A stretch of 63,499 nt of DNA from Candidatus Aenigmatarchaeota archaeon. GTDB lineage: Archaea; Aenigmatarchaeota; Aenigmatarchaeia; CG10238-14; SCSR01. The notes beneath the pieces are model-generated. The model ran no database searches, was not told the DNA's origin, and saw only the letters and a program-made list of their open reading frames with translations. Made by a program: the position numbers and the translations under genes. This document shows positions 721 to 45,857 of this stretch, piece by piece. The stretch is taken from the NCBI GenBank assembly GCA_039090665.1, contig JAWCSL010000003.1, positions 1 to 63,499 on the forward strand. Reading direction: 5' to 3'. Within the stretch, counting starts at the first letter, position 1. Every line of letters begins with the position of its first letter.

Positions 721-978
721 GGCGTGCTGGTTGTAGCCCGTCTTTTGTTCCAGGGTAGCATTTGTCTAAGCGTCTCAAACTTGCACCTCATAGGGGGCAC
801 CGATCCGTTTCATCTTTGACAACCTCAACTCAATTTCAATCATCGTTATCGAGGTTGCAAAGTGTCGTTTCTGATATCGGTGCTACCTTCTCAGGTAAGC
901 TTACGCTCCCCTCAAAGGTGGACGGAACTTCCTCAGCCTTTCTTTGATGAAAGGCCGAAGCTACCCAACCAGCTCGCC
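721..978 (-). ncRNA. rnpB: RNase P RNA (compact, 258 nt)
   Basis: Minus strand has GAGGAAGUUCCGUCCAC (CR-I), CAGAAAC (CR-II), UGAAACG (CR-III), UGCAAG, GCUUAGACAAAUG (CR-IV), AACAAAAGACGGGCUAC (CR-V); ends pair as P1 (GGCGAGCUGGUUG / CAACCAGCACGCC). Confidence 0.93.
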
Positions 979-2971: not shown

Positions 2972-3737
2972 GTAGTTTGATTTTTCCTTCACCACCAAAT
3001 TTTTCAATTTGTTGACATACAGCTTCAAGCTCTTTTATTAGCTTCTTTTCTAAAGATTTAGGGTCTTTGCCTTTAATTTCAATTCTATATTTTGGAGCAG
3101 AAATATACTTAACAGTCCCGCCAGTTTTTTCCTTCAAAGAAGAAAGCAGCTCTTTTATCTTTTTTATTCCATCCTTATCAAAAGATTTCAGTTCAATTTC
3201 AGCTTTAATTTCATATTCTTTTTCTTGAATACTTTCTTCCGCTATTTTAGCTATTGCTTCAGCCCATTCTTTGCTAACACCATTTTTAATCAATTCTTCT
3301 TTACTAGTTTTAGCCACTTCAAAGGCTGTGAATAAGTCACCAAATTTTTCTTGTAGTAAAAAACCAACTTCTTCATAAGCTTGATCCAAATTTTTACCGA
3401 GCTCTTTTGCAGCTTGCTCCAAAAGCTTTTCTGCTCTCTGCTCTTTCCTGAAAGCATTCATCTTTTCTTTTTCATCTTTTTCACTTACTCTTTTTAAACT
3501 CAAGTTCACAAAATTTTTCTGATAATCGATCTTGATAACTTTAGCAACATATTGTTTGTTAATTTTTACAAAATCCCGAATGTCATGAACCCACTTACCA
3601 GCGACTTCTGTCACATGAATCATGCCTTCAACTCCAGGATATTCAACAAGCTTACACCAAGCAGCGTAAGGTGTGAGCTTTTCCACAGTTACCAACACAA
3701 GTTCGCTCCATTGTGGCAAACCTTTCTTCCTTACCAT
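2961..3737 (-). CDS. eif2a: Translation initiation factor aIF2 alpha
   Basis: S1 domain (ELVLVTVEK, EGMIHVTEVA, NLSLKRV); C-terminal YISAPKYRI; usual neighbour of nop10-PAC2. Confidence 0.95.
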   Translation of the reverse strand: MVRKKGLPQWSELVLVTVEKLTPYAAWCKLVEYPGVEGMIHVTEVAGKWVHDIRDFVKINKQYVAKVIKIDYQKNFVNLSLKRVSEKDEKEKMNAFRKEQRAEKLLEQAAKELGKNLDQAYEEVGFLLQEKFGDLFTAFEVAKTSKEELIKNGVSKEWAEAIAKIAEESIQEKEYEIKAEIELKSFDKDGIKKIKELLSSLKEKTGGTVKYISAPKYRIEIKGKDPKSLEKKLIKELEAVCQQIEKFGGEGKIKLLKS

Positions 3738-11748: not shown

Positions 11749-11844
11749 GCCTAGGTGGCCGAATCTGGTTAAGGCGCCAGTCTGCTAAAGTTGTAGAGAG
11801 CTGGTGGTCGTAAGACCGTGTGGGTTCAAATCCCACCCTAGGCG
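11749..11844 (+). tRNA. tRNA-Ser(GCU) with 11-nt intron at 37/38
   Basis: Stem CCAGT/GCTGG; CT-GCT-A, intron AAGTTGTAGAG; BHB helix CTGC/GTAG; long variable arm. Confidence 0.9.
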
Positions 11845-23287: not shown

Positions 23288-23914
23288 ATGAAATTCAAGT
23301 TTTTAGACTGGATTTACAGGATTTTTGGACTGAGAAGAAACATTAAGATAGGAATTTATGGTGAGACAGGAGTAGGGAAAACAACTTTAGCGAATAGAAT
23401 CTCTCTTGATTGGACTGGCGAAGAGATTGGTAAAGTTACGGGAATACCTCATGAAACTAGAGCAGTTCAAAAAAAGGAAAAAATTGAGATAAAGGTTAAT
23501 AAGAAGAAGATCTTGCTAAGCATCTTGGACATGCCTGGCTTGTCCACAAAAGTTGATTATAGAAGTTTCTTGAAGTATGGTCTTTCAAAAAAAGAAGCAA
23601 GGGAAAGGGCAAGGGAAGCAACTGAAGGGGTAATAGAAGCAATTAAATGGTTAAGTAATGTGGATGCTGTTTTGGCAGTTATGGATGCGACTCGTGACCC
23701 GTTGACTCAAGTCAATATTACATTGCTTGGAAACCTTGAAGCCAGAAAAATTCCTGTGATAATAGTGGCAAACAAGATTGATAAGAAAGGAGCCAAACCT
23801 CACTTGATAAAGGAGGCTTTTCCAACTTATCCTGTTGTTGAAATCTCAGCCTTAAAAGGAAAGAACATGGATTCCCTTTACGAAGCTATAGCAAAATATG
23901 CAAGGGGAGGATGA
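23288..23914 (+). CDS. oapA: Small Era-like GTPase (OapA-like)
   Basis: GETGVGKT, GIPHETR, DMPG, NKID, SALKG; followed by DUF2073-like and Zn-ribbon genes. Confidence 0.85.
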   Translation: MKFKFLDWIYRIFGLRRNIKIGIYGETGVGKTTLANRISLDWTGEEIGKVTGIPHETRAVQKKEKIEIKVNKKKILLSILDMPGLSTKVDYRSFLKYGLSKKEARERAREATEGVIEAIKWLSNVDAVLAVMDATRDPLTQVNITLLGNLEARKIPVIIVANKIDKKGAKPHLIKEAFPTYPVVEISALKGKNMDSLYEAIAKYARGG

Positions 23915-24327
23915 TGAAGTTAAAATTCGATTTTGTTTCTTCAGCTGTCTTGGAATCTAAGCCAAGAGATAAAAGAATAAACTTCATCTTGAACAAGGTC
24001 AAAGATGGAACAATTTTGGTTACAGATGGGGTTATGAGTCCAGAAGAAGAAATGGAGCTTATAAAAGAGACGATGAGAAGAGTTGATGAGGGCTTTCCAG
24101 GAATTGAAGTTGCTAGTTTGAAAAAACCTGTGAGTGGAATAGCAAAGTGGATTGAAAAATTTTCGGAACAAAAAGATAAGGTAAAAATTTTCTTTGCGAG
24201 CTTGACTGGAGAGAAAAAAGTTTCCAAAAGTTGGAAAACTGGCTTAACTTTAATAGGGCCTGCTAAATACATCAAACAAGTGAAGAAAAACCCCAATTCT
24301 TTTTCAATTTTAACAGAGGTTAAATGA
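23911..24327 (+). CDS. oapB: DUF2073-type protein (OapB-like)
   Basis: ILVTDGVMSPEEEMELIKETM...FPGIEV...GLTLIGPA. Confidence 0.82.
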   Translation: MMKLKFDFVSSAVLESKPRDKRINFILNKVKDGTILVTDGVMSPEEEMELIKETMRRVDEGFPGIEVASLKKPVSGIAKWIEKFSEQKDKVKIFFASLTGEKKVSKSWKTGLTLIGPAKYIKQVKKNPNSFSILTEVK

Positions 24328-24743
24328 TGCATAAGTGTGTGAGATGTGGAACAATTTATCAGGATGAGGATTCTTCAATATTGAGAGGATGCACAAGTTG
24401 TGGATCAATTTTTTTCCTTTATTTAAAAGATCAACAAGATTTAGCTCAAGTAAAAGAGATAGAGAAAGAGCTTGAAGCTAGAGACACAACACTTGAAAAA
24501 GAAATAGTCAAAAAGATTGAAGAAAAAAAGGAAGAGCAGAGATTTGTTGTTGAAAAAGACAAGAAAAAAGCTAAGAAGGAAAGAAAGATTAAGTTTGGAA
24601 TTGAGACTGTGAGGATACCAAGAGAAGGAGTTTATGAAATAAATCTTGACGCTTTGATGCAGAAGAAACCTTTGATAATTTTGGAAAAGGGGAAAGTTTA
24701 CTTCATTCACTTACCTTCTGTTTTTGAAAGCAAGAAAGAATAA
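24324..24743 (+). CDS. oapC: Zn-ribbon protein (OapC-like)
   Basis: MHKCVRCG...GCTSCGSIFF...ETVRIPREGVYEINL. Confidence 0.85.
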   Translation: MMHKCVRCGTIYQDEDSSILRGCTSCGSIFFLYLKDQQDLAQVKEIEKELEARDTTLEKEIVKKIEEKKEEQRFVVEKDKKKAKKERKIKFGIETVRIPREGVYEINLDALMQKKPLIILEKGKVYFIHLPSVFESKKE

Positions 24744-25376
24744 TTAGCAAACTAATAATTATGTTCAAGATATTGCTTTGGAGTGTAGCTAGTGTAACAT
24801 TTTTTTGGTTTGATATATTATGGTGCACATAGGGAAGATTCACATGAATCCCATGTTTCCTCATTTCAAACTTCTTGATAAACACGCACAACCTCTTCAC
24901 AATCTCTTAAAATGCTAGGATCAATAAAATCTTGATATGCTTTTGGCTTCAAAATGTTGAATTTTATCATCCATGTTCCTTGCTCAATAGGGCACTTCAC
25001 TTTAAACGGTTCAGAAGATGAAAATTGTTTTTAATCTTTTATTTTTCCAAAAAACTGTAAAAGAATTACTTGTTCATACTTTAAAAAGACGGGAAAATAT
25101 CGACGAAATATTAGCTTGAGCTACAATTTTGATCACATAAATTATTCTTTTTGTACCTTGTGGTTCTTCAAACAATCTAAAAAAGTAGAAGAGAAAAAGA
25201 TTTAAGCAAGTAATACCAATAAAAATATAGAAGAAGAATGCAGTCCCTACCTTTGTGGTTGCACAGAATGCTTGTAGCAAGGCTTTTTATTAGTTGCTAC
25301 ACCACAAAGGGTCAATTTGGGATGATTCCTTCTTTTTGATTCCAAAGGATGACCAGAAAATTAATTTCATGTTCTT

Positions 25377-25555
25377 GAATTGGCATGGGTCAATGAGAAA
25401 GGGCGAGACTAACCCCTAAGAGGTATTCTGATAGATCGACACCGGTTTAAGGTCTCCGTCCCCTCAACATTGAGAATGAACTGGAGAATTGAAAAATCGA
25501 CACCGGTATGTAAATCTAATTCTTCCGTTCCTCGAATTTCTCATTGACTCAATTC
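25377..25555 (+). ncRNA. Candidate structured RNA upstream of lysW with twin AUCG-ACAC-CGGU hairpins
   Basis: 14-bp closing stem 25387-25400/25537-25550; ATCGACACCGGT at 25435 and 25496; G-U pairs favour the + strand. Confidence 0.6.
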
Positions 25556-25588
25556 GTGGTAAAATTTAAATAGGGGAGGTTGAGAGAA

Positions 25589-25783
25589 ATGAAAAGCAAT
25601 TATGTTGGAAAATGTGAAGAATGTCTAGCAACAGTAGAATATATGGAAGGGGATCCAATTGTTGGTGAAGTAATAACATGCCCGGAGTGTGGAAGTGATC
25701 TGGAAATTATAACTATAGAGAGAAGCTCTTATACTCTTAACTTTAGAAAAGTCAAGCTGCAGGGAGAAGATTGGGGTGAATAG
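25589..25783 (+). CDS. lysW: LysW-type amino-group carrier protein
   Basis: CEEC...VGEVITCPECGSDLEI...C-terminal EDWGE; GGAGGT SD. Confidence 0.9.
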   Translation: MKSNYVGKCEECLATVEYMEGDPIVGEVITCPECGSDLEIITIERSSYTLNFRKVKLQGEDWGE

Positions 25784-26143
25784 TTAAATCAATCCCCTTG
25801 CTTTATCTTCCCTTGCTTGTTTTTCAAGTTCAGGCTTAATTTTTATTAGTCCTTCAAAAAGTTTTTCATAATATTCTTCAGAAATTAGTCTATCATCTTT
25901 CAATTGTTTGAGGAGAATAAAAGCATCTAGGTTTACTTCGTCCCTTTTTTTCATTTCCTCAGGTTTGCAATTTTCTTTTTTCATTTCTTCTTTTCTACAA
26001 GCTTCGCACAAAACTCTGGCAACAACATTGTAAATTTCAGCAACAACAATTTGTTCAGGATATGGAATTTGCTGGGTTCTTGCTATTTCTTCTTTCATCT
26101 TTTCAATTGTTTCTTTTACGGCTTTAAGAGCACAATCCTCCAT
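25784..26143 (-). CDS. Hypothetical helical protein
   Basis: 119-aa ORF with native-looking composition; no motif recognised. Confidence 0.55.
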   Translation of the reverse strand: MEDCALKAVKETIEKMKEEIARTQQIPYPEQIVVAEIYNVVARVLCEACRKEEMKKENCKPEEMKKRDEVNLDAFILLKQLKDDRLISEEYYEKLFEGLIKIKPELEKQAREDKARGLI

Positions 26144-26870: not shown

Positions 26871-27107
26871 ATGTTAAAAGAAGAAAACAAAGTGGTTAAA
26901 GATATAATAACTGGCAATGCTGTTCCAAAGAGCATAAGCTTGATTGAACTTGAAAAGAATTATGCCTTACTTGCTGAGATGTTTGCTCGATTGTTAGATA
27001 GAATTAAAACAATAGAAGACGAATTAGATAAGTTGGAAGAAAAAGTTGCGCTACTTCTTATGGAAAAAGAAGAAAATAAAAGAAAGAAAAACAATAGAGA
27101 AGTTTAA
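26871..27107 (+). CDS. Small coiled-coil protein
   Basis: Heptad-like LLDRIKTIEDELDKLEEKV. Confidence 0.6.
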   Translation: MLKEENKVVKDIITGNAVPKSISLIELEKNYALLAEMFARLLDRIKTIEDELDKLEEKVALLLMEKEENKRKKNNREV

Positions 27108-27163
27108 GTCTTGTTTTCTTAATCGAAAAGCTTAAATCTTTTAATTACTTTTAAGTAATCACC

Positions 27164-27469
27164 ATGAACAACTTAAAAATCTTCGAAATAAGTGAAGTGT
27201 TAGCTTCGGCAAAGAGAACTTTGTTACTTTTTTTGCTTAACAACCAACCGATGAGCTACACTCAGATAGAAAAAGGGTTTAGAAAGAATGAAGTGAAAAT
27301 AGGTAGTAGTGAGATTTACAAGCATCTGGATGTTTTGCTTAAATATCGCTACATAGCAAAACGTGGCAAAATGTACATGGTAACACTTAAAGGAAAAAAA
27401 CTGGTAGAAAGCTTGAGTTCTATTGAAAATGTACCACCAACTATTCCAAAGATTGAAATGGTTTTCTAG
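27164..27469 (+). CDS. Winged-helix (ArsR-like) DNA-binding protein
   Basis: SSEIYKHLDVLLKYRYIAK...YMVTLKGKKL pattern. Confidence 0.75.
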   Translation: MNNLKIFEISEVLASAKRTLLLFLLNNQPMSYTQIEKGFRKNEVKIGSSEIYKHLDVLLKYRYIAKRGKMYMVTLKGKKLVESLSSIENVPPTIPKIEMVF

Positions 27470-27664
27470 AGAATTTTTACTTAATTCTCTTCTCCCTATT
27501 ATTTGATGTTGGTTGCTAAGGGTTGATGATTTTAAAATTTCTCCTTTTCGGATAACTATTTAAATCTTTTCCCAATTTTTTCTATTAGATAGATAAAAAG
27601 CTACTATAGCTTATCCATATACTCTTAAATCTTTTAACTGTTTATTAGTTAATAGGTAGGAAGA

Positions 27665-28642
27665 ATGAAGAAAAAATTGTTGTTGCTAGTAATTTTGGTT
27701 GCAGGAATAATAGTTTTGACAAATTTTGTTCAATTCGTTCAAGCTCCGAGACCATTAAGAGGTTTTGTAATAGATTTACCGTCTACGGTTGACGCTTCTC
27801 CTGGAGAAACTATAACTATAAATGGAACAATTTTGAACATTGGTTATTATTGGCTTCGCAATTTTAACATTTCAGTCTCAGGCTTGCCAGAAGATTTTAA
27901 GGTTAAAGTTATTCCTGAAAAATTTGATGCTGTTAGGATTTTAAGGGAATGGAATCCTGAGCAAGGAGTTTATCGAGTTCCTGAGAAATTCTGGATTGAA
28001 ATAAAAATACCTGAAGGTAAAGTCGGGGCTTTTCTTGTTGAAGTTAAAGGGAAAGAATGGTGGAGTTTTAAGAAAGTGGAAAACTCAACTAAATTTGTTT
28101 TAAGAGTTTCTGCACAACCAAAGCTTTCTATTTCTGATATAGAAGTTCCTGAAAAAGTAGTCGAGTTTAAACCTTTTAACATAAGTTTTGAAGTCAAGAA
28201 CGAGGGAGCTGGTAATTGGCCAGTTTCTTTAAGAGTGATTGCTCCGGAAGACTGGAAAGTTGAACCTGAAGTTCAGAATTTCACGATAAATGCAAGTTCA
28301 TCTGAAAAAGTTGTTTTCACTTTAACACCAACAAACACAAGCGGAAACATTTCAATTTTCATGGAATATCCTTACAAATCAGAAATTTTGAATTTAACCA
28401 AGATTGGGCCAATGATAGTTCCAACTAAGGAAGAAGTTGTTGAAGGAATAAAAATACCAACTGCTTTAGCAGCTTTGACAGAATTTGTTAAAGCAAATCC
28501 AGTTGTTACATTGATTGCAATCATTCTTTTGGCTATAATCTTCTGGAATGTTTGGCAAATAGTGAAGCAGATCAAGTTCAAAAAAGTGAGGAAGAAGCCT
28601 GAAGAGATTGTTGAGACGAACGCAAAAGTAAAACCGGTTTAA
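27665..28642 (+). CDS. Membrane-anchored surface protein with Ig/CARDB-like domains
   Basis: Signal peptide; two beta-rich repeats (PGETITINGTILN; FNISFEVKNEG...PEDWKV); C-terminal TM with basic tail. Confidence 0.75.
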   Translation: MKKKLLLLVILVAGIIVLTNFVQFVQAPRPLRGFVIDLPSTVDASPGETITINGTILNIGYYWLRNFNISVSGLPEDFKVKVIPEKFDAVRILREWNPEQGVYRVPEKFWIEIKIPEGKVGAFLVEVKGKEWWSFKKVENSTKFVLRVSAQPKLSISDIEVPEKVVEFKPFNISFEVKNEGAGNWPVSLRVIAPEDWKVEPEVQNFTINASSSEKVVFTLTPTNTSGNISIFMEYPYKSEILNLTKIGPMIVPTKEEVVEGIKIPTALAALTEFVKANPVVTLIAIILLAIIFWNVWQIVKQIKFKKVRKKPEEIVETNAKVKPV

Positions 28643-45745: not shown

Positions 45746-45857
45746 TGGGCCTACCGGGATTTGAACCCGGGACCAACGGGTTTCTTTCATCTTTTTAATC
45801 AAAGCTTTTAGCTTTAAGCTAAAAGCCCGCTGCTCTACCATGCTGAGCTATAGGCCC
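45746..45857 (-). tRNA. tRNA-Lys(UUU) with 38-nt intron at 37/38
   Basis: Stem GCGGG/CCCGT; intron 45782-45819; BHB helix CTTT/AAAG. Confidence 0.9.

What the first reader, a model, noticed from the sequence alone, without database searches (positions are those of the whole stretch)
25377..25555. Candidate new structured RNA with twin AUCG-ACAC-CGGU hairpins upstream of lysW
Seen: a 14-bp closing helix (25387-25400/25537-25550) enclosing two arms, GGGCGAGAC/GTCTCCGTCC (25401-25461) and GAAC.GGAGAATT/AATTCTTCCGTTC (25478-25530). Each arm displays the same 12-mer ATCGACACCGGT (25435, 25496), which folds as a 4-6 bp stem with an ACAC tetraloop. G-U pairs work only on the + strand, and the element ends ~33 nt before the lysW ATG. 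Established: tandem identical loops occur in ligand-binding RNAs (guanidine-II uses two ACGR hairpins). Inference: an undescribed riboswitch-like or protein-binding RNA.
Basis: partly seen in the sequence, partly recalled or inferred. Interest (0 to 1): 0.8.

Follow-up and report, generated by a model that had tools for sequence, protein, structure and literature searches.

The report
Structured small-ORF RNA, not lysW riboswitch
The twin hairpins are real, but they are the tail of a separate RNA gene of about 330 bases (own promoter, tiny reading frame, a protein-binding kink) that a group of small archaea keep whether or not lysW lies beside it, so this is an undescribed RNA of unknown job, not a lysine switch.

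Summary
The lysW riboswitch reading fails. The element is the 3' domain of a transcript of about 330 nt (window ~25230-25556, + strand). A conserved archaeal BRE/TATA promoter sits at 25190-25207.

I found 11 homologous loci, and NCBI names their neighbour proteins Candidatus Aenigmatarchaeota. Only one of the 11 has lysW. In several, the RNA abuts a convergent gene, so no gene follows it on the same strand.

The transcript starts with a conserved small ORF of 25-35 codons. The ORF is in frame and free of stops in all 12 sequences. In 11 of them its stop lies 6 nt before an invariant box C/D-type kink-turn hairpin. That hairpin is a presumed L7Ae site.

The finding's region is two tandem copies of one hairpin module. 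Each module has a UUGAG/CUCAA clamp, a 3-nt A-rich bulge, a covarying stem and an apical GACACC motif. Module and motif numbers vary between lineages.

No Rfam family matches in any locus. My best reading is a new lineage-specific small-ORF RNA or RNP. Its GACACC loops probably bind a partner that is not yet identified. The function is inferred, not shown.

The parts
25190..25207 (+). Archaeal promoter: purine-rich BRE-like run (AGAGAAAAAG) followed by a TATA box (ATTTAAGC)
   Evidence: AGAAAA..ATTTAA is invariant in the alignment of 7 homologs. A TATA-like octamer starts 31-38 nt upstream of the conserved AUG in all 12 sequences. The expected TATA-to-start distance in archaea is established knowledge.
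25230..25556 (+). Whole transcript, about 330 nt. The 5' end is inferred from promoter geometry. The 3' end is not defined here, because no oligo-T run precedes lysW.
   Evidence: An nhmmer profile covers 25214-25563, and there is a single copy in the window. Homologs are 280-335 nt long.
25238..25339 (+). Small ORF of 33 codons (MQSLPLWLHRMLVARLFISCYTTKGQFGMIPSF). At the position of the conserved stop (25313-25315) this genome has CAA, so the frame runs on to UGA 25337-25339.
   Evidence: In all 12 homologs the AUG-to-stop interval is a multiple of 3, with six different lengths. There are 0 in-frame stops against 1-4 in each other frame. In 11 of 12 the ORF ends in UAG or UAA exactly 6 nt before GGGAUGA.
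25250..25310 (+). Helix P2 (25250-25259 with 25301-25310, 10 bp) with a variable apical part. It lies inside the small ORF.
   Evidence: Inverted repeat I3, 100% complementary. Different complementary sequences replace it in L120 (GUGAGGCAU/AUGCCUCAC), L145 and L180.
25243..25323 (+). Helix P1: GUCCC 25243-25247 with GGGAU 25319-25323. It cannot form at the same time as the K-turn C stem.
   Evidence: RNAalifold pairs columns 31-35 with 118-122 in 7 of 7 sequences. The helix extends to 7-11 bp in L120, L142, L145, L179 and L180 (read).
25316..25357 (+). Box C/D-type kink-turn hairpin.
- C stem: 25316-25320 with 25353-25357.
- Bulge: G25321 A25322 U25323.
- Sheared pairs: G25324.A25352 and A25325.G25351.
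- U25326.U25350.
- NC stem: 25327-25331 with 25345-25349.
- Loop: 25332-25344.
   Evidence: Pair table over 12 sequences. The G.A and A.G pairs and the GAU bulge are invariant. 3b.3n is U.U in 11 and U.G in 1. 7b.7n covaries (UA, GC, GU, AU). C-stem pair -3 covaries (UA, GC, GU, CG). The K-turn consensus is established knowledge.
25387..25550 (+). Closing helix of the 3' domain (25387-25400 with 25537-25550).
   Evidence: Five of its pairs change on both sides among 7 relatives (helix 5). The inner part (UGAGAAA/UUUCUCA) exists as a continuous helix only in the window, L121, L137 and L138. It is interrupted in L141 and largely missing in L120 and L139. Other lineages close the domain with unrelated helices.
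25394..25466 (+). Module 1.
- Clamp: UGAG 25394-25397 with CUCA 25463-25466.
- Bulge: AAA 25398-25400.
- Stem: 25401-25410 with 25451-25461.
- Inner hairpin: ACC/GGU 25412-25424.
- Apical 12-mer: AUCGACACCGGU 25435-25446.
   Evidence: RNAalifold on 7 modules selects this fold, with covariation at 12/72, 13/71 and 14/68. Covariance model R1 scores it 91.5 bits and finds one strong copy per homolog. Single-sequence folds agree.
25470..25535 (+). Module 2.
- Clamp: UUGAG 25470-25474 with CUCGA 25531-25535.
- Bulge: AAU 25475-25477.
- Lower stem: GAAC/GUUC 25478-25481 with 25527-25530.
- Upper stem: GGAGAAUU/AAUUCUUC 25483-25490 with 25518-25525.
- Apical 12-mer: 25496-25507.
   Evidence: It has the same design as module 1. 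Compensatory replacements occur in relatives: UUCGGG/CCCGAA and GAAA/UUUC in L120, UGGAUUGA/UCAAUCCA in L138, and GAAGAUUAA/UUAAUCUUC in L141.
25589..25783 (+). lysW (64 aa, zinc ribbon, C-terminal EDWGE). It is a neighbour, not part of the element. An SD-like GGAGG lies at 25575-25579.
   Evidence: Pfam Zn_ribbon_LysW, E 2e-9. It is present next to the RNA only here and in L121.
25784..26143 (-). Convergent 119-aa gene of unknown function. I used it as the anchor to collect homologous loci.
   Evidence: 55 homologs, and those NCBI names are Candidatus Aenigmatarchaeota. The model is a five-helix protein (pLDDT 84) with no PDB fold match at E<=0.001. There is no Pfam family above cut-off.

Best explanation
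The region 25377-25555 is the 3' domain of an independently transcribed RNA of about 330 nt that also carries a small ORF. The RNA is specific to a clade of Aenigmatarchaeota (DPANN archaea).

Shown by comparison with relatives:
1. A conserved BRE/TATA promoter is placed so that the transcript starts 0-8 nt before a conserved AUG.
2. A reading frame of 25-35 codons is kept open in every lineage.
3. A canonical box C/D-type kink-turn hairpin begins 3 nt after that frame's usual stop codon.
4. A closed 3' domain is built from one to two (in some lineages a third, clamp-less) hairpins. Each hairpin displays GACACC at its tip.

Inferred mechanism:
- The kink-turn recruits L7Ae. Its 3b.3n U.U pair is the type that folds only when the protein binds.
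- The K-turn C stem (UUUGG/CCAGA) and helix P1 (GUCCC/GGGAU) compete for the same G residues. P1 pairs codons 2-4 of the small ORF. L7Ae binding would therefore switch the 5' domain between two folds and so affect translation of the small ORF.
- The repeated, unpaired GACACC loops act as a multivalent docking site for a trans-acting partner. A protein is more likely than an RNA. This would resemble a scaffold or sponge RNA.

lysW was inserted downstream in one sublineage. It is not what the element is for.
For: Independence from lysW:
- There are 11 homologous loci and lysW is in only one.
- In L120, L137 and L138 the RNA's 3' end abuts or overlaps a convergent gene.

Promoter:
- The AGAAAA..ATTTAA block is invariant among the 7 close sequences; a BRE/TATA-like box in the same position occurs in all 12.
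- The TATA box starts 31-38 nt before the AUG.

Small ORF:
- In 12 of 12 sequences the AUG-to-stop interval is a multiple of 3, with six distinct lengths.
- There is no in-frame stop, against 1-4 stops in each other frame.
- Per sequence, shuffles stay open with probability 0.09-0.28.
- The stop sits at a fixed position in 11 of 12.

Kink-turn:
- The G.A/A.G pairs, the 3-nt bulge and U.U are invariant.
- Both flanking stems covary.
- The rule that such K-turns need L7Ae to fold comes from the abstracts of PMC5689011 and PMC6298567.
- L7Ae is universal in archaea (PMC5539422 abstract).

Structure of the 3' domain:
- 84% of cells pair against 32-52% for slid partners.
- Eleven pairs have double changes, reached by 2 of 500 shuffles.
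- The covariation score is 0.159 against 0.104, reached by 0 of 500 shuffles.
- All 21 modules fold on their own into a clamp, a 3-nt bulge and a stem.
- RNAalifold and model R1 recover the module in distant lineages.

GACACC motif:
- There are 1-3 copies per RNA, always in the sense strand at hairpin tips.
- No complementary GGUGU(C/U) occurs in any of the 12 RNAs.
- GGUGUC does not occur in the window's tRNA or RNase P genes.

No known family:
- Rfam 15 gives nothing at E<=10 on the window region or at E<=1 on 11 loci.
Against: - No expression, 5'/3'-end or ribosome-profiling data were available. The transcript ends, the translation of the ORF and L7Ae binding are all inferred.
- There are only 12 sequences, perhaps 8-9 independent lineages. 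All but two were fetched through one neighbouring gene. Distribution and synteny are therefore biased by how the loci were collected.
- The peptides are poorly conserved. Only M(Q/S)SLPL at the N-terminus and KG at the C-terminus recur. In this very window the conserved stop is lost.
- The most conserved nucleotides (clamp, K-turn, GACACC) never vary, so they carry no covariation signal.
- P1 and the K-turn C stem conflict. One of them could simply be wrong rather than part of a switch.
- No partner for GACACC was identified.
- Three related loci (L143, L144, L181) lack the RNA at this position.
Confidence: 0.55

Rival explanations
1. One reading: a riboswitch-like cis-regulatory leader of lysW. 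Two identical ACAC hairpins would bind a small ligand, as in guanidine-II.
For: The element ends 33-38 nt before the lysW ATG. No oligo-T terminator lies in between, and lysW has an SD-like GGAGG. The TTTAAATA at 25565 lies too close to that SD to include it in a transcript. Read-through transcription into lysW is therefore plausible in this genome and in L121 (inference).
Against: Ten of 11 homologous loci lack lysW, and several have no downstream gene on the same strand at all. Module number varies from 1 to 2. ACAC loops are not self-complementary. The tetraloop hairpin is not kept in distant relatives.
Confidence: 0.04
2. The transcript is essentially an mRNA for a small protein of 25-35 aa. 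The K-turn hairpin and the twin modules are only a stabilising or terminating 3' UTR with no trans function.
For: The ORF is conserved, and the promoter spacing gives a leaderless or near-leaderless message. T-rich tracts follow the last helix in several homologs.
Against: The nucleotide motifs of the 3' part are invariant across lineages in which the peptide has diverged almost completely. That pattern is the opposite of what a protein-centred gene would show. In the window the stop codon is lost without loss of the RNA motifs. A phmmer search of 1.84 billion proteins finds no relative of the peptide.
Confidence: 0.2
3. A type I toxin-antitoxin-like locus. A small toxic peptide would be made from an mRNA kept inactive by extensive folding, including a 3' fold-back.
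For: The ORF size is 25-35 aa. The mRNA is heavily structured. Alternative, mutually exclusive helices surround the start region. In some lineages a 3' tail folds back on an upstream segment.
Against: The peptides have no membrane-spanning hydrophobic stretch and are polar and N-rich in several lineages. No conserved antisense promoter or antisense RNA is evident. The locus is single-copy and syntenic, not mobile.
Confidence: 0.06
4. A DNA-level element. The twin 12-mers contain the palindrome ACCGGT and would be operator sites for a transcription factor. Alternatively the region would be part of a replication origin, because the neighbouring genes carry the 'origin-associated protein' Pfam names OapB and OapC.
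For: The 12-mers are direct repeats 61 bp apart and each contains a 6-bp palindrome. The oapABC (= arvABC) genes lie upstream.
Against: Stems around the repeats keep pairing through compensatory and G-U changes that work on one strand only. The motif always lies in the sense strand at hairpin tips and shrinks to GACACC, which is not palindromic, in distant relatives. No Orc1/Cdc6 gene or ORB-type repeats were seen next to it. The oap genes have been re-assigned to vesicle formation (PMC10927574).
Confidence: 0.04
5. A very divergent copy of a universal or known archaeal RNA that the Rfam models miss. Candidates are SRP RNA, 5S rRNA, an RNase P paralogue, or a box C/D or H/ACA guide RNA.
For: The size of about 300 nt and two hairpins closed by a helix recall the SRP S domain. 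The three-way shape recalls 5S rRNA. The K-turn recalls guide RNAs and RNase P RNA. These are resemblances from my own knowledge, treated as leads only.
Against: No hit to any of these families appears at E<=10. RNase P RNA is present elsewhere in the window at 133 bits. No conserved AGCA/GGAA helix-8 motif is present. The 5' and 3' ends do not pair. No D-box/guide arrangement or pseudouridylation pocket with a conserved guide is present. The family is absent from related loci.
Confidence: 0.05

Closest known systems
Box C/D-type kink-turns bound by archaeal L7Ae (in C/D sRNAs, RNase P RNA and the l7ae mRNA leader)
   Same: The hairpin at 25316-25357 has a C stem, a 3-nt bulge, tandem sheared G.A/A.G pairs, a U.U at 3b.3n and a Watson-Crick NC stem. 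These are invariant in 12 sequences. Like the l7ae leader K-turn, it sits in an mRNA-like transcript where protein-dependent folding could act as a switch (PMC6298567 and PMC5689011 abstracts).
   Different: There are no guide sequences and no D'/C' boxes. The K-turn lies just after a stop codon, not in a 5' leader. The RNA has no similarity to C/D, H/ACA or RNase P families. L7Ae binding was not tested.
Dual-function (coding plus regulatory) small RNAs of bacteria, such as RNAIII/hld, SgrS/SgrT and SR1/SR1P (from my own knowledge)
   Same: A short transcript combines a conserved small ORF with RNA structure that is better conserved than the peptide.
   Different: This one is archaeal and leaderless or near-leaderless. 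It carries a K-turn and repeated hairpin modules. No antisense target region was identified, and neither function has been demonstrated.
Protein-sponge or scaffold RNAs with repeated hairpin loops, such as CsrB/RsmZ with GGA loops (from my own knowledge)
   Same: The same short motif (GACACC) is displayed in the loops of several hairpins. Copy number (1-3) changes between lineages through duplication and loss. No internal complement exists.
   Different: There are only 1-3 copies, against up to about 20 in CsrB. The motif and its partner are unknown. The RNA also has a coding part and a K-turn.
   Same: Two small hairpins carry an identical tetraloop closed by C-G pairs.
   Different: Guanidine-II loops (ACGR) pair with each other and sit directly before a regulated gene. 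Here ACAC cannot self-pair. The hairpins are embedded in larger modules about 60 nt apart. No regulated gene is conserved, and Rfam gives no hit.
SRP RNA S domain (helices 5, 6 and 8)
   Same: A long helix closes two side-by-side hairpins with similar apical loops. The total length is about 300 nt.
   Different: There is no helix-8 SRP54-binding motif, no GNAR loops and no 5'/3' terminal pairing. The Archaea_SRP model finds nothing.

Membership tests
Kink-turn (box C/D type) RNA motif | Three-nucleotide bulge followed by tandem sheared G.A and A.G pairs | tested here: met
   The GAU bulge, G.A and A.G are found in 12 of 12 sequences. In the window these are 25321-25325 with 25351-25352.
Kink-turn (box C/D type) RNA motif | Watson-Crick C stem on one side and NC stem on the other, with 3b.3n = U.U | tested here: met
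   C-stem pairs -1 and -2 are G-C in all sequences, and -3 covaries (UA/GC/GU/CG). The NC stem is U-A, C-G, C-G plus a covarying 7b.7n pair. U.U occurs in 11 of 12 and U.G in 1.
Kink-turn (box C/D type) RNA motif | Binding by L7Ae | not testable with these tools
   This needs a gel shift or RIP experiment.
Box C/D guide sRNA | C, D', C' and D boxes with 10-12-nt guides ending 5 nt upstream of D and D' | tested here: not met
   Only one C/D-like pair exists, and it encloses a 9-21-nt loop. There is no conserved CUGA with an adjacent conserved guide. There is no Rfam hit.
H/ACA guide sRNA | Hairpin with a pseudouridylation pocket, a K-turn in the upper stem and an ACA box 14-16 nt from the pocket | tested here: not met
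   The sequence 3' of the K-turn C stem is not conserved among close relatives. The modules lack an internal K-turn. The A-rich triplet after each clamp is not at the required distance.
Guanidine-II riboswitch (mini-ykkC) | Two hairpins with ACGR loops able to form loop-loop C-G pairs, directly upstream of a regulated gene | tested here: not met
   The loops are ACAC or ACAU. No conserved downstream gene exists. There is no Rfam hit.
Lysine (L-box) riboswitch or any lys/arg leader | Conserved position upstream of lysine or arginine biosynthesis or transport genes | tested here: not met
   lysW is adjacent in 2 of 12 loci only. There is no match to RF00168.
Archaeal SRP RNA | Helix 8 with conserved loops (AGCA...GGAA type), helix 6, and pairing of the 5' and 3' ends | tested here: not met
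   No such motif is conserved. Archaea_SRP gives no hit at E<=10.
Dual-function small RNA | One transcript with a translated small ORF and an RNA-level function | tested here: inconclusive
   Conservation of the ORF and of the structure is shown. Translation and an RNA function are not.
Type I toxin mRNA | Small hydrophobic membrane peptide and a cis- or trans-encoded antisense RNA | tested here: not met
   The peptides lack a transmembrane stretch. No antisense unit was seen, although no dedicated search for one was made.

The most novel reading that the evidence does not exclude
A previously unknown class of archaeal ribonucleoprotein. It would be a leaderless small-ORF RNA in which L7Ae binding to a K-turn placed at the stop codon toggles two mutually exclusive helices. 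That toggle would gate translation, while tandem GACACC hairpins capture a specific cellular partner. This would be an archaeal counterpart of bacterial dual-function and sponge RNAs, found in genome-reduced DPANN symbionts.
Probability: 0.2. Interest if true: 0.8.

Novelty: new variant of a known kind. Interest (0 to 1): 0.6.

Why it matters
Very few structured non-coding or dual-function RNAs are known from archaea, and to my knowledge almost none from DPANN lineages, whose biology is read almost entirely from protein genes.

This family pairs a kept-open tiny reading frame with RNA motifs conserved to the nucleotide, including a textbook kink-turn. That makes it directly testable with L7Ae binding, reporter translation and pull-down of the GACACC-loop partner. 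Such tests could reveal a new layer of regulation in these organisms.

There is also a practical lesson.

Tried and rejected
1. Rfam at gathering threshold on the window, and at E<=10 or E<=1 on the region and on 11 loci. The only hits were noise (SCARNA24, RyhB, MIR396, IS009).
2. Metagenome scan with TCGACACCGG N30-60 TCGACACCGG. The pattern was too loose. 
3. Viral-contig scan with the K-turn pattern. The 33 hits were all unrelated GC-rich or coding sequences.
4. 5S rRNA, SRP RNA, an RNase P paralogue, U3-like, H/ACA, C/D and SECIS/PYLIS-like readings. I considered each from resemblance and dropped them because defining features are missing (see the membership tests).
5. Module clamp as a K-turn. 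Rejected because no G.A pairs follow the AAA bulge.
6. Internal pseudoknot partner for GACACC. None was found. GGUGUC is also absent from the window's tRNA and RNase P genes.
7. Function of the 119-aa neighbour. It has no Pfam family. The AlphaFold model is good (pLDDT 84), but the best Foldseek E-value against PDB was 3.8.
9. MAFFT plus RNAalifold on module 2 failed to align the stems. I used single-sequence folds and manual comparison instead.
10. The bacterial-type promoter and terminator scan is not informative for an archaeon.
11. The 450-nt spacer 24744-25190 has no similarity to any homologous locus.
Full report
**Observation.** The window comes from an AT-rich archaeon. It holds an archaeal RNase P RNA and 12 tRNA genes. 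The proteins nearest to its genes are named Candidatus Aenigmatarchaeota by NCBI.

- The 14-bp closing helix is at 25387-25400/25537-25550.
- The exact 12-mer ATCGACACCGGT lies at 25435 and 25496.
- The 12-mer is unique to this spot in the window.
- The + strand MFE fold reproduces the drawn structure with z = -2.35. The minus strand gives z = -2.06, so thermodynamics alone is weak evidence.
- G+C rises to 0.42-0.43 inside the element.
- No Rfam 15 family matches, even at E<=10.

**Relatives, and the end of the lysW link.**
- A protein-guided scan for LysW found an Aenigmatarchaeota MAG contig (L121). It carries an 86%-identical copy of the element, also in front of lysW.
- The DNA-pattern scan of metagenomes yielded one further sequence (L120, identical to L017) at 74% identity. 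There the element runs directly into a convergent 118-aa gene, with no lysW.
- That convergent gene (window 25784-26143, minus strand) has 55 homologs. I used them as anchors and fetched 12 more loci.
- Profile searches found the RNA in nine of these loci. It was absent from three: L143, L144 and L181.
- tblastn finds lysW only in L121.

The element is therefore conserved independently of lysW. lysW looks like an insertion in the window/L121 sublineage.

**The element is part of a larger gene.**
- When I extended the alignments upstream, conservation increased instead of fading.
- An invariant AGAAAA..ATTTAA block (window 25190-25207) has the form of an archaeal BRE plus TATA box.
- Across 12 sequences a TATA-like octamer starts 31-38 nt before a conserved AUG.
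- By the established archaeal geometry (TATA centred near -26/-27), the 5' end falls 0-8 nt before that AUG, near 25230.
- The profile match spans 25214-25563, and the gene is single-copy in the window.
- The distant homologs L140, L142, L145, L179 and L180 are found mainly through the 5' half.
- Rfam finds nothing in any of the loci.

**A conserved small ORF.**
- The conserved AUG (25238) opens a reading frame. In 11 of 12 sequences it ends with UAG or UAA exactly 6 nt before the invariant GGGAUGA.
- The frame is 25-35 codons long. Its interior takes six different lengths (72-102 nt), all multiples of three.
- It contains no in-frame stop, while the two other frames carry 1-4 stops each.
- Shuffled interiors stay open with probability 0.09-0.28 per sequence.
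- Allowing for only about 8 independent lineages, chance is an unlikely explanation. This last step is my inference.
- In the window the stop position reads CAA, and the frame continues to UGA 25337-25339 (33 codons).
- The peptides are poorly conserved and have no relatives among 1.84 billion proteins.
- Either the act of translation matters more than the product, or the peptide evolves fast.

**A kink-turn.**
- The invariant strings GGGAUGAUUCC and GGAUGACC flank a short hairpin and fit the box C/D-type K-turn consensus position by position.
- The fit comprises a C stem, a GAU bulge, G.A, A.G and U.U, then U-A, C-G, C-G. Pair 7b.7n covaries (UA, GC, GU, AU). C-stem pair -3 also covaries (UA, GC, GU, CG).
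- In the window this is 25316-25357.
- K-turns with U.U at 3b.3n are reported to fold only when L7Ae binds. An L7Ae-dependent K-turn is the basis of L7Ae's own translational autoregulation (abstracts of PMC5689011 and PMC6298567).
- The 5' strand of the C stem and the bulge (UUUGGGAU) can instead pair with codons 2-4 of the ORF. This is helix P1, GUCCC/GGGAU. It extends to 7-11 bp in L120, L142, L145, L179 and L180.
- The two helices exclude each other, and both are conserved. I read this as a possible protein-driven switch, but one of the two could simply be spurious.

**What the twin hairpins are.**
- In L180 two clean units follow each other. Each unit has this form: UUGAGAAAGG, stem, GACACC-bearing tip, stem, CCCUCAAAAA.
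- All 21 units from 12 RNAs fold on their own into the same design. That design is a UGAG/CUCA clamp, a 3-nt A-rich bulge and a stem.
- RNAalifold chooses this fold for seven module-1 sequences, with covariation in the stem.
- A covariance model built from those seven recovers one strong copy per RNA, including the distant lineages, and none elsewhere in the window.
- In the window, module 1 is 25394-25466 and module 2 is 25470-25535.
- Module 2 keeps pairing through wholesale compensatory replacement in L120, L138 and L141.
It has one compensatory and two wobble-consistent changes.
- In L142, L145 and L179 the conserved unit is GACACC, sometimes doubled, inside 13-15-nt loops.
- GACACC copy number ranges from 1 to 3.
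- None of the RNAs contains a complement to it.

**The closing helix.**
- Its outer pairs covary (helix 5).
- Its inner part (UGAGAAA/UUUCUCA) competes with the module-1 clamp. It exists as a continuous helix only in the window, L121, L137 and L138, is interrupted in L141 and largely absent in L120 and L139; other lineages close the domain with unrelated helices.
- For the window, the fold with the full closing helix is -52.4 kcal/mol. The fold with both clamps plus the outer 8 bp is -43.5 kcal/mol.
- Eleven pairs change on both sides (2 of 500 shuffles), and the covariation score is 0.159 against 0.104 (0 of 500).
- The tool's own caveat applies: related sequences can beat shuffles without any structure.

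**Context.**
- Upstream lies the oapA/B/C operon (23288-24743; Pfam OapB and OapC plus a small GTPase). In Haloferax this operon has been renamed arvABC and shown to drive extracellular-vesicle formation (PMC10927574).
- The RNA sits between this operon and the convergent 119-aa gene in most loci. Other genes are sometimes inserted.
- In L179 the RNA stays near the 119-aa homolog without oapABC.
- I draw no functional link from this, because the loci were collected through that neighbour.
- The 119-aa protein is a five-helix protein with no detectable relatives of known fold.

**lysW in this genome.**
- lysW (25589-25783) has an SD-like GGAGG at 25575-25579.
- The A/T-rich TTTAAATA at 25565 lies too close to include that SD in a transcript that starts about 25 nt downstream of it.
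- No oligo-T run separates the RNA from lysW.
- Read-through from the RNA's promoter is therefore plausible here and in L121. This is my inference and was not tested. Even if true, it would be a secondary use of an older RNA gene.

**Verdict.**
- The best-supported description is a lineage-specific RNA of about 330 nt with a small ORF, an L7Ae-type K-turn and tandem GACACC-presenting hairpin modules.
- The mechanism is inferred: an L7Ae-dependent switch at the ORF, and multivalent docking of an unknown partner.
- All the building blocks are known kinds. The family and the combination are new.

Noticed in passing
window 25313-25315 (CAA), compared with the same position in L121, L137, L138 and the other homologs: In this genome the otherwise conserved stop codon of the small ORF is a sense codon. 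The frame therefore reads through the 5' strand of the K-turn to UGA 25337-25339. It is the only such case among the 12 sequences.
   Followed up: partly
window 25589-25783: lysW appears as an orphan here. It lies between the RNA gene and a convergent gene, with no lysX/Y/Z/J/K partner adjacent. Its closest relatives (59-67% identity) outside Aenigmatarchaeota are in Brockarchaeota and Thermoproteota MAGs, which suggests acquisition or relocation. I did not screen the rest of the window for the pathway.
   Followed up: no
window 24744-25190: About 450 nt between oapC and the RNA promoter has no counterpart in L121, where the gap is about 60 nt. It has no similarity to any fetched locus. Two short minus-strand ORFs (24703-24900 and 24866-25000) could be fragments of a decayed gene.
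   Followed up: partly
window 23288-24743: This is the oapA/oapB/oapC (= arvA/B/C) operon: a small GTPase, a DUF2073 protein and a Zn-ribbon DUF2072 protein. It is the set shown to drive extracellular-vesicle formation in Haloferax (PMC10927574). It is syntenic with the 119-aa gene across all fetched loci except L179.
   Followed up: partly
L143, L144 and L181 (whole loci): In one sublineage the 119-aa homolog lies directly against oapC, or is separated from it only by a PBP-family gene. The RNA gene is missing from the 6-8 kb fetched. Loss, or relocation elsewhere in those genomes, was not resolved.
   Followed up: partly
L180 2860-3010 (minus strand): Two perfectly formed clamp modules lie in tandem. 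Each starts UUGAGAAAGGAU and ends AUCCCUCAAAAA. This is the clearest evidence that the twin arrangement arose by duplication of one unit.
   Followed up: yes
L140 ~3640-3650 (minus strand): In this homolog the GACACC motif also occupies codons 2-4 of the small ORF (AUG UCG ACA CCC). Other homologs have UCAUCCC at that position. UCAUCCC is also the 3' clamp sequence of the modules and is complementary to the K-turn strand GGGAUGA. The meaning of these recurring complementary heptamers is unexplained.
   Followed up: no
window 722-977 (minus strand), and the tRNA hits listed: An archaeal RNase P RNA scores 133 bits. There are 12 tRNA genes, and several are 86-112 nt long (for example 45746-45857 and 11749-11844). 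They are probably intron-containing or long-arm tRNAs.
   Followed up: no
window 26871-28642: A three-gene block is conserved next to the 119-aa gene in L120, L137, L138 and L141. It comprises a 78-aa coiled-coil-like protein, a 101-aa winged-helix protein (HTH_45/ArsR-like) and a 325-aa CARDB-domain membrane protein.
   Followed up: no
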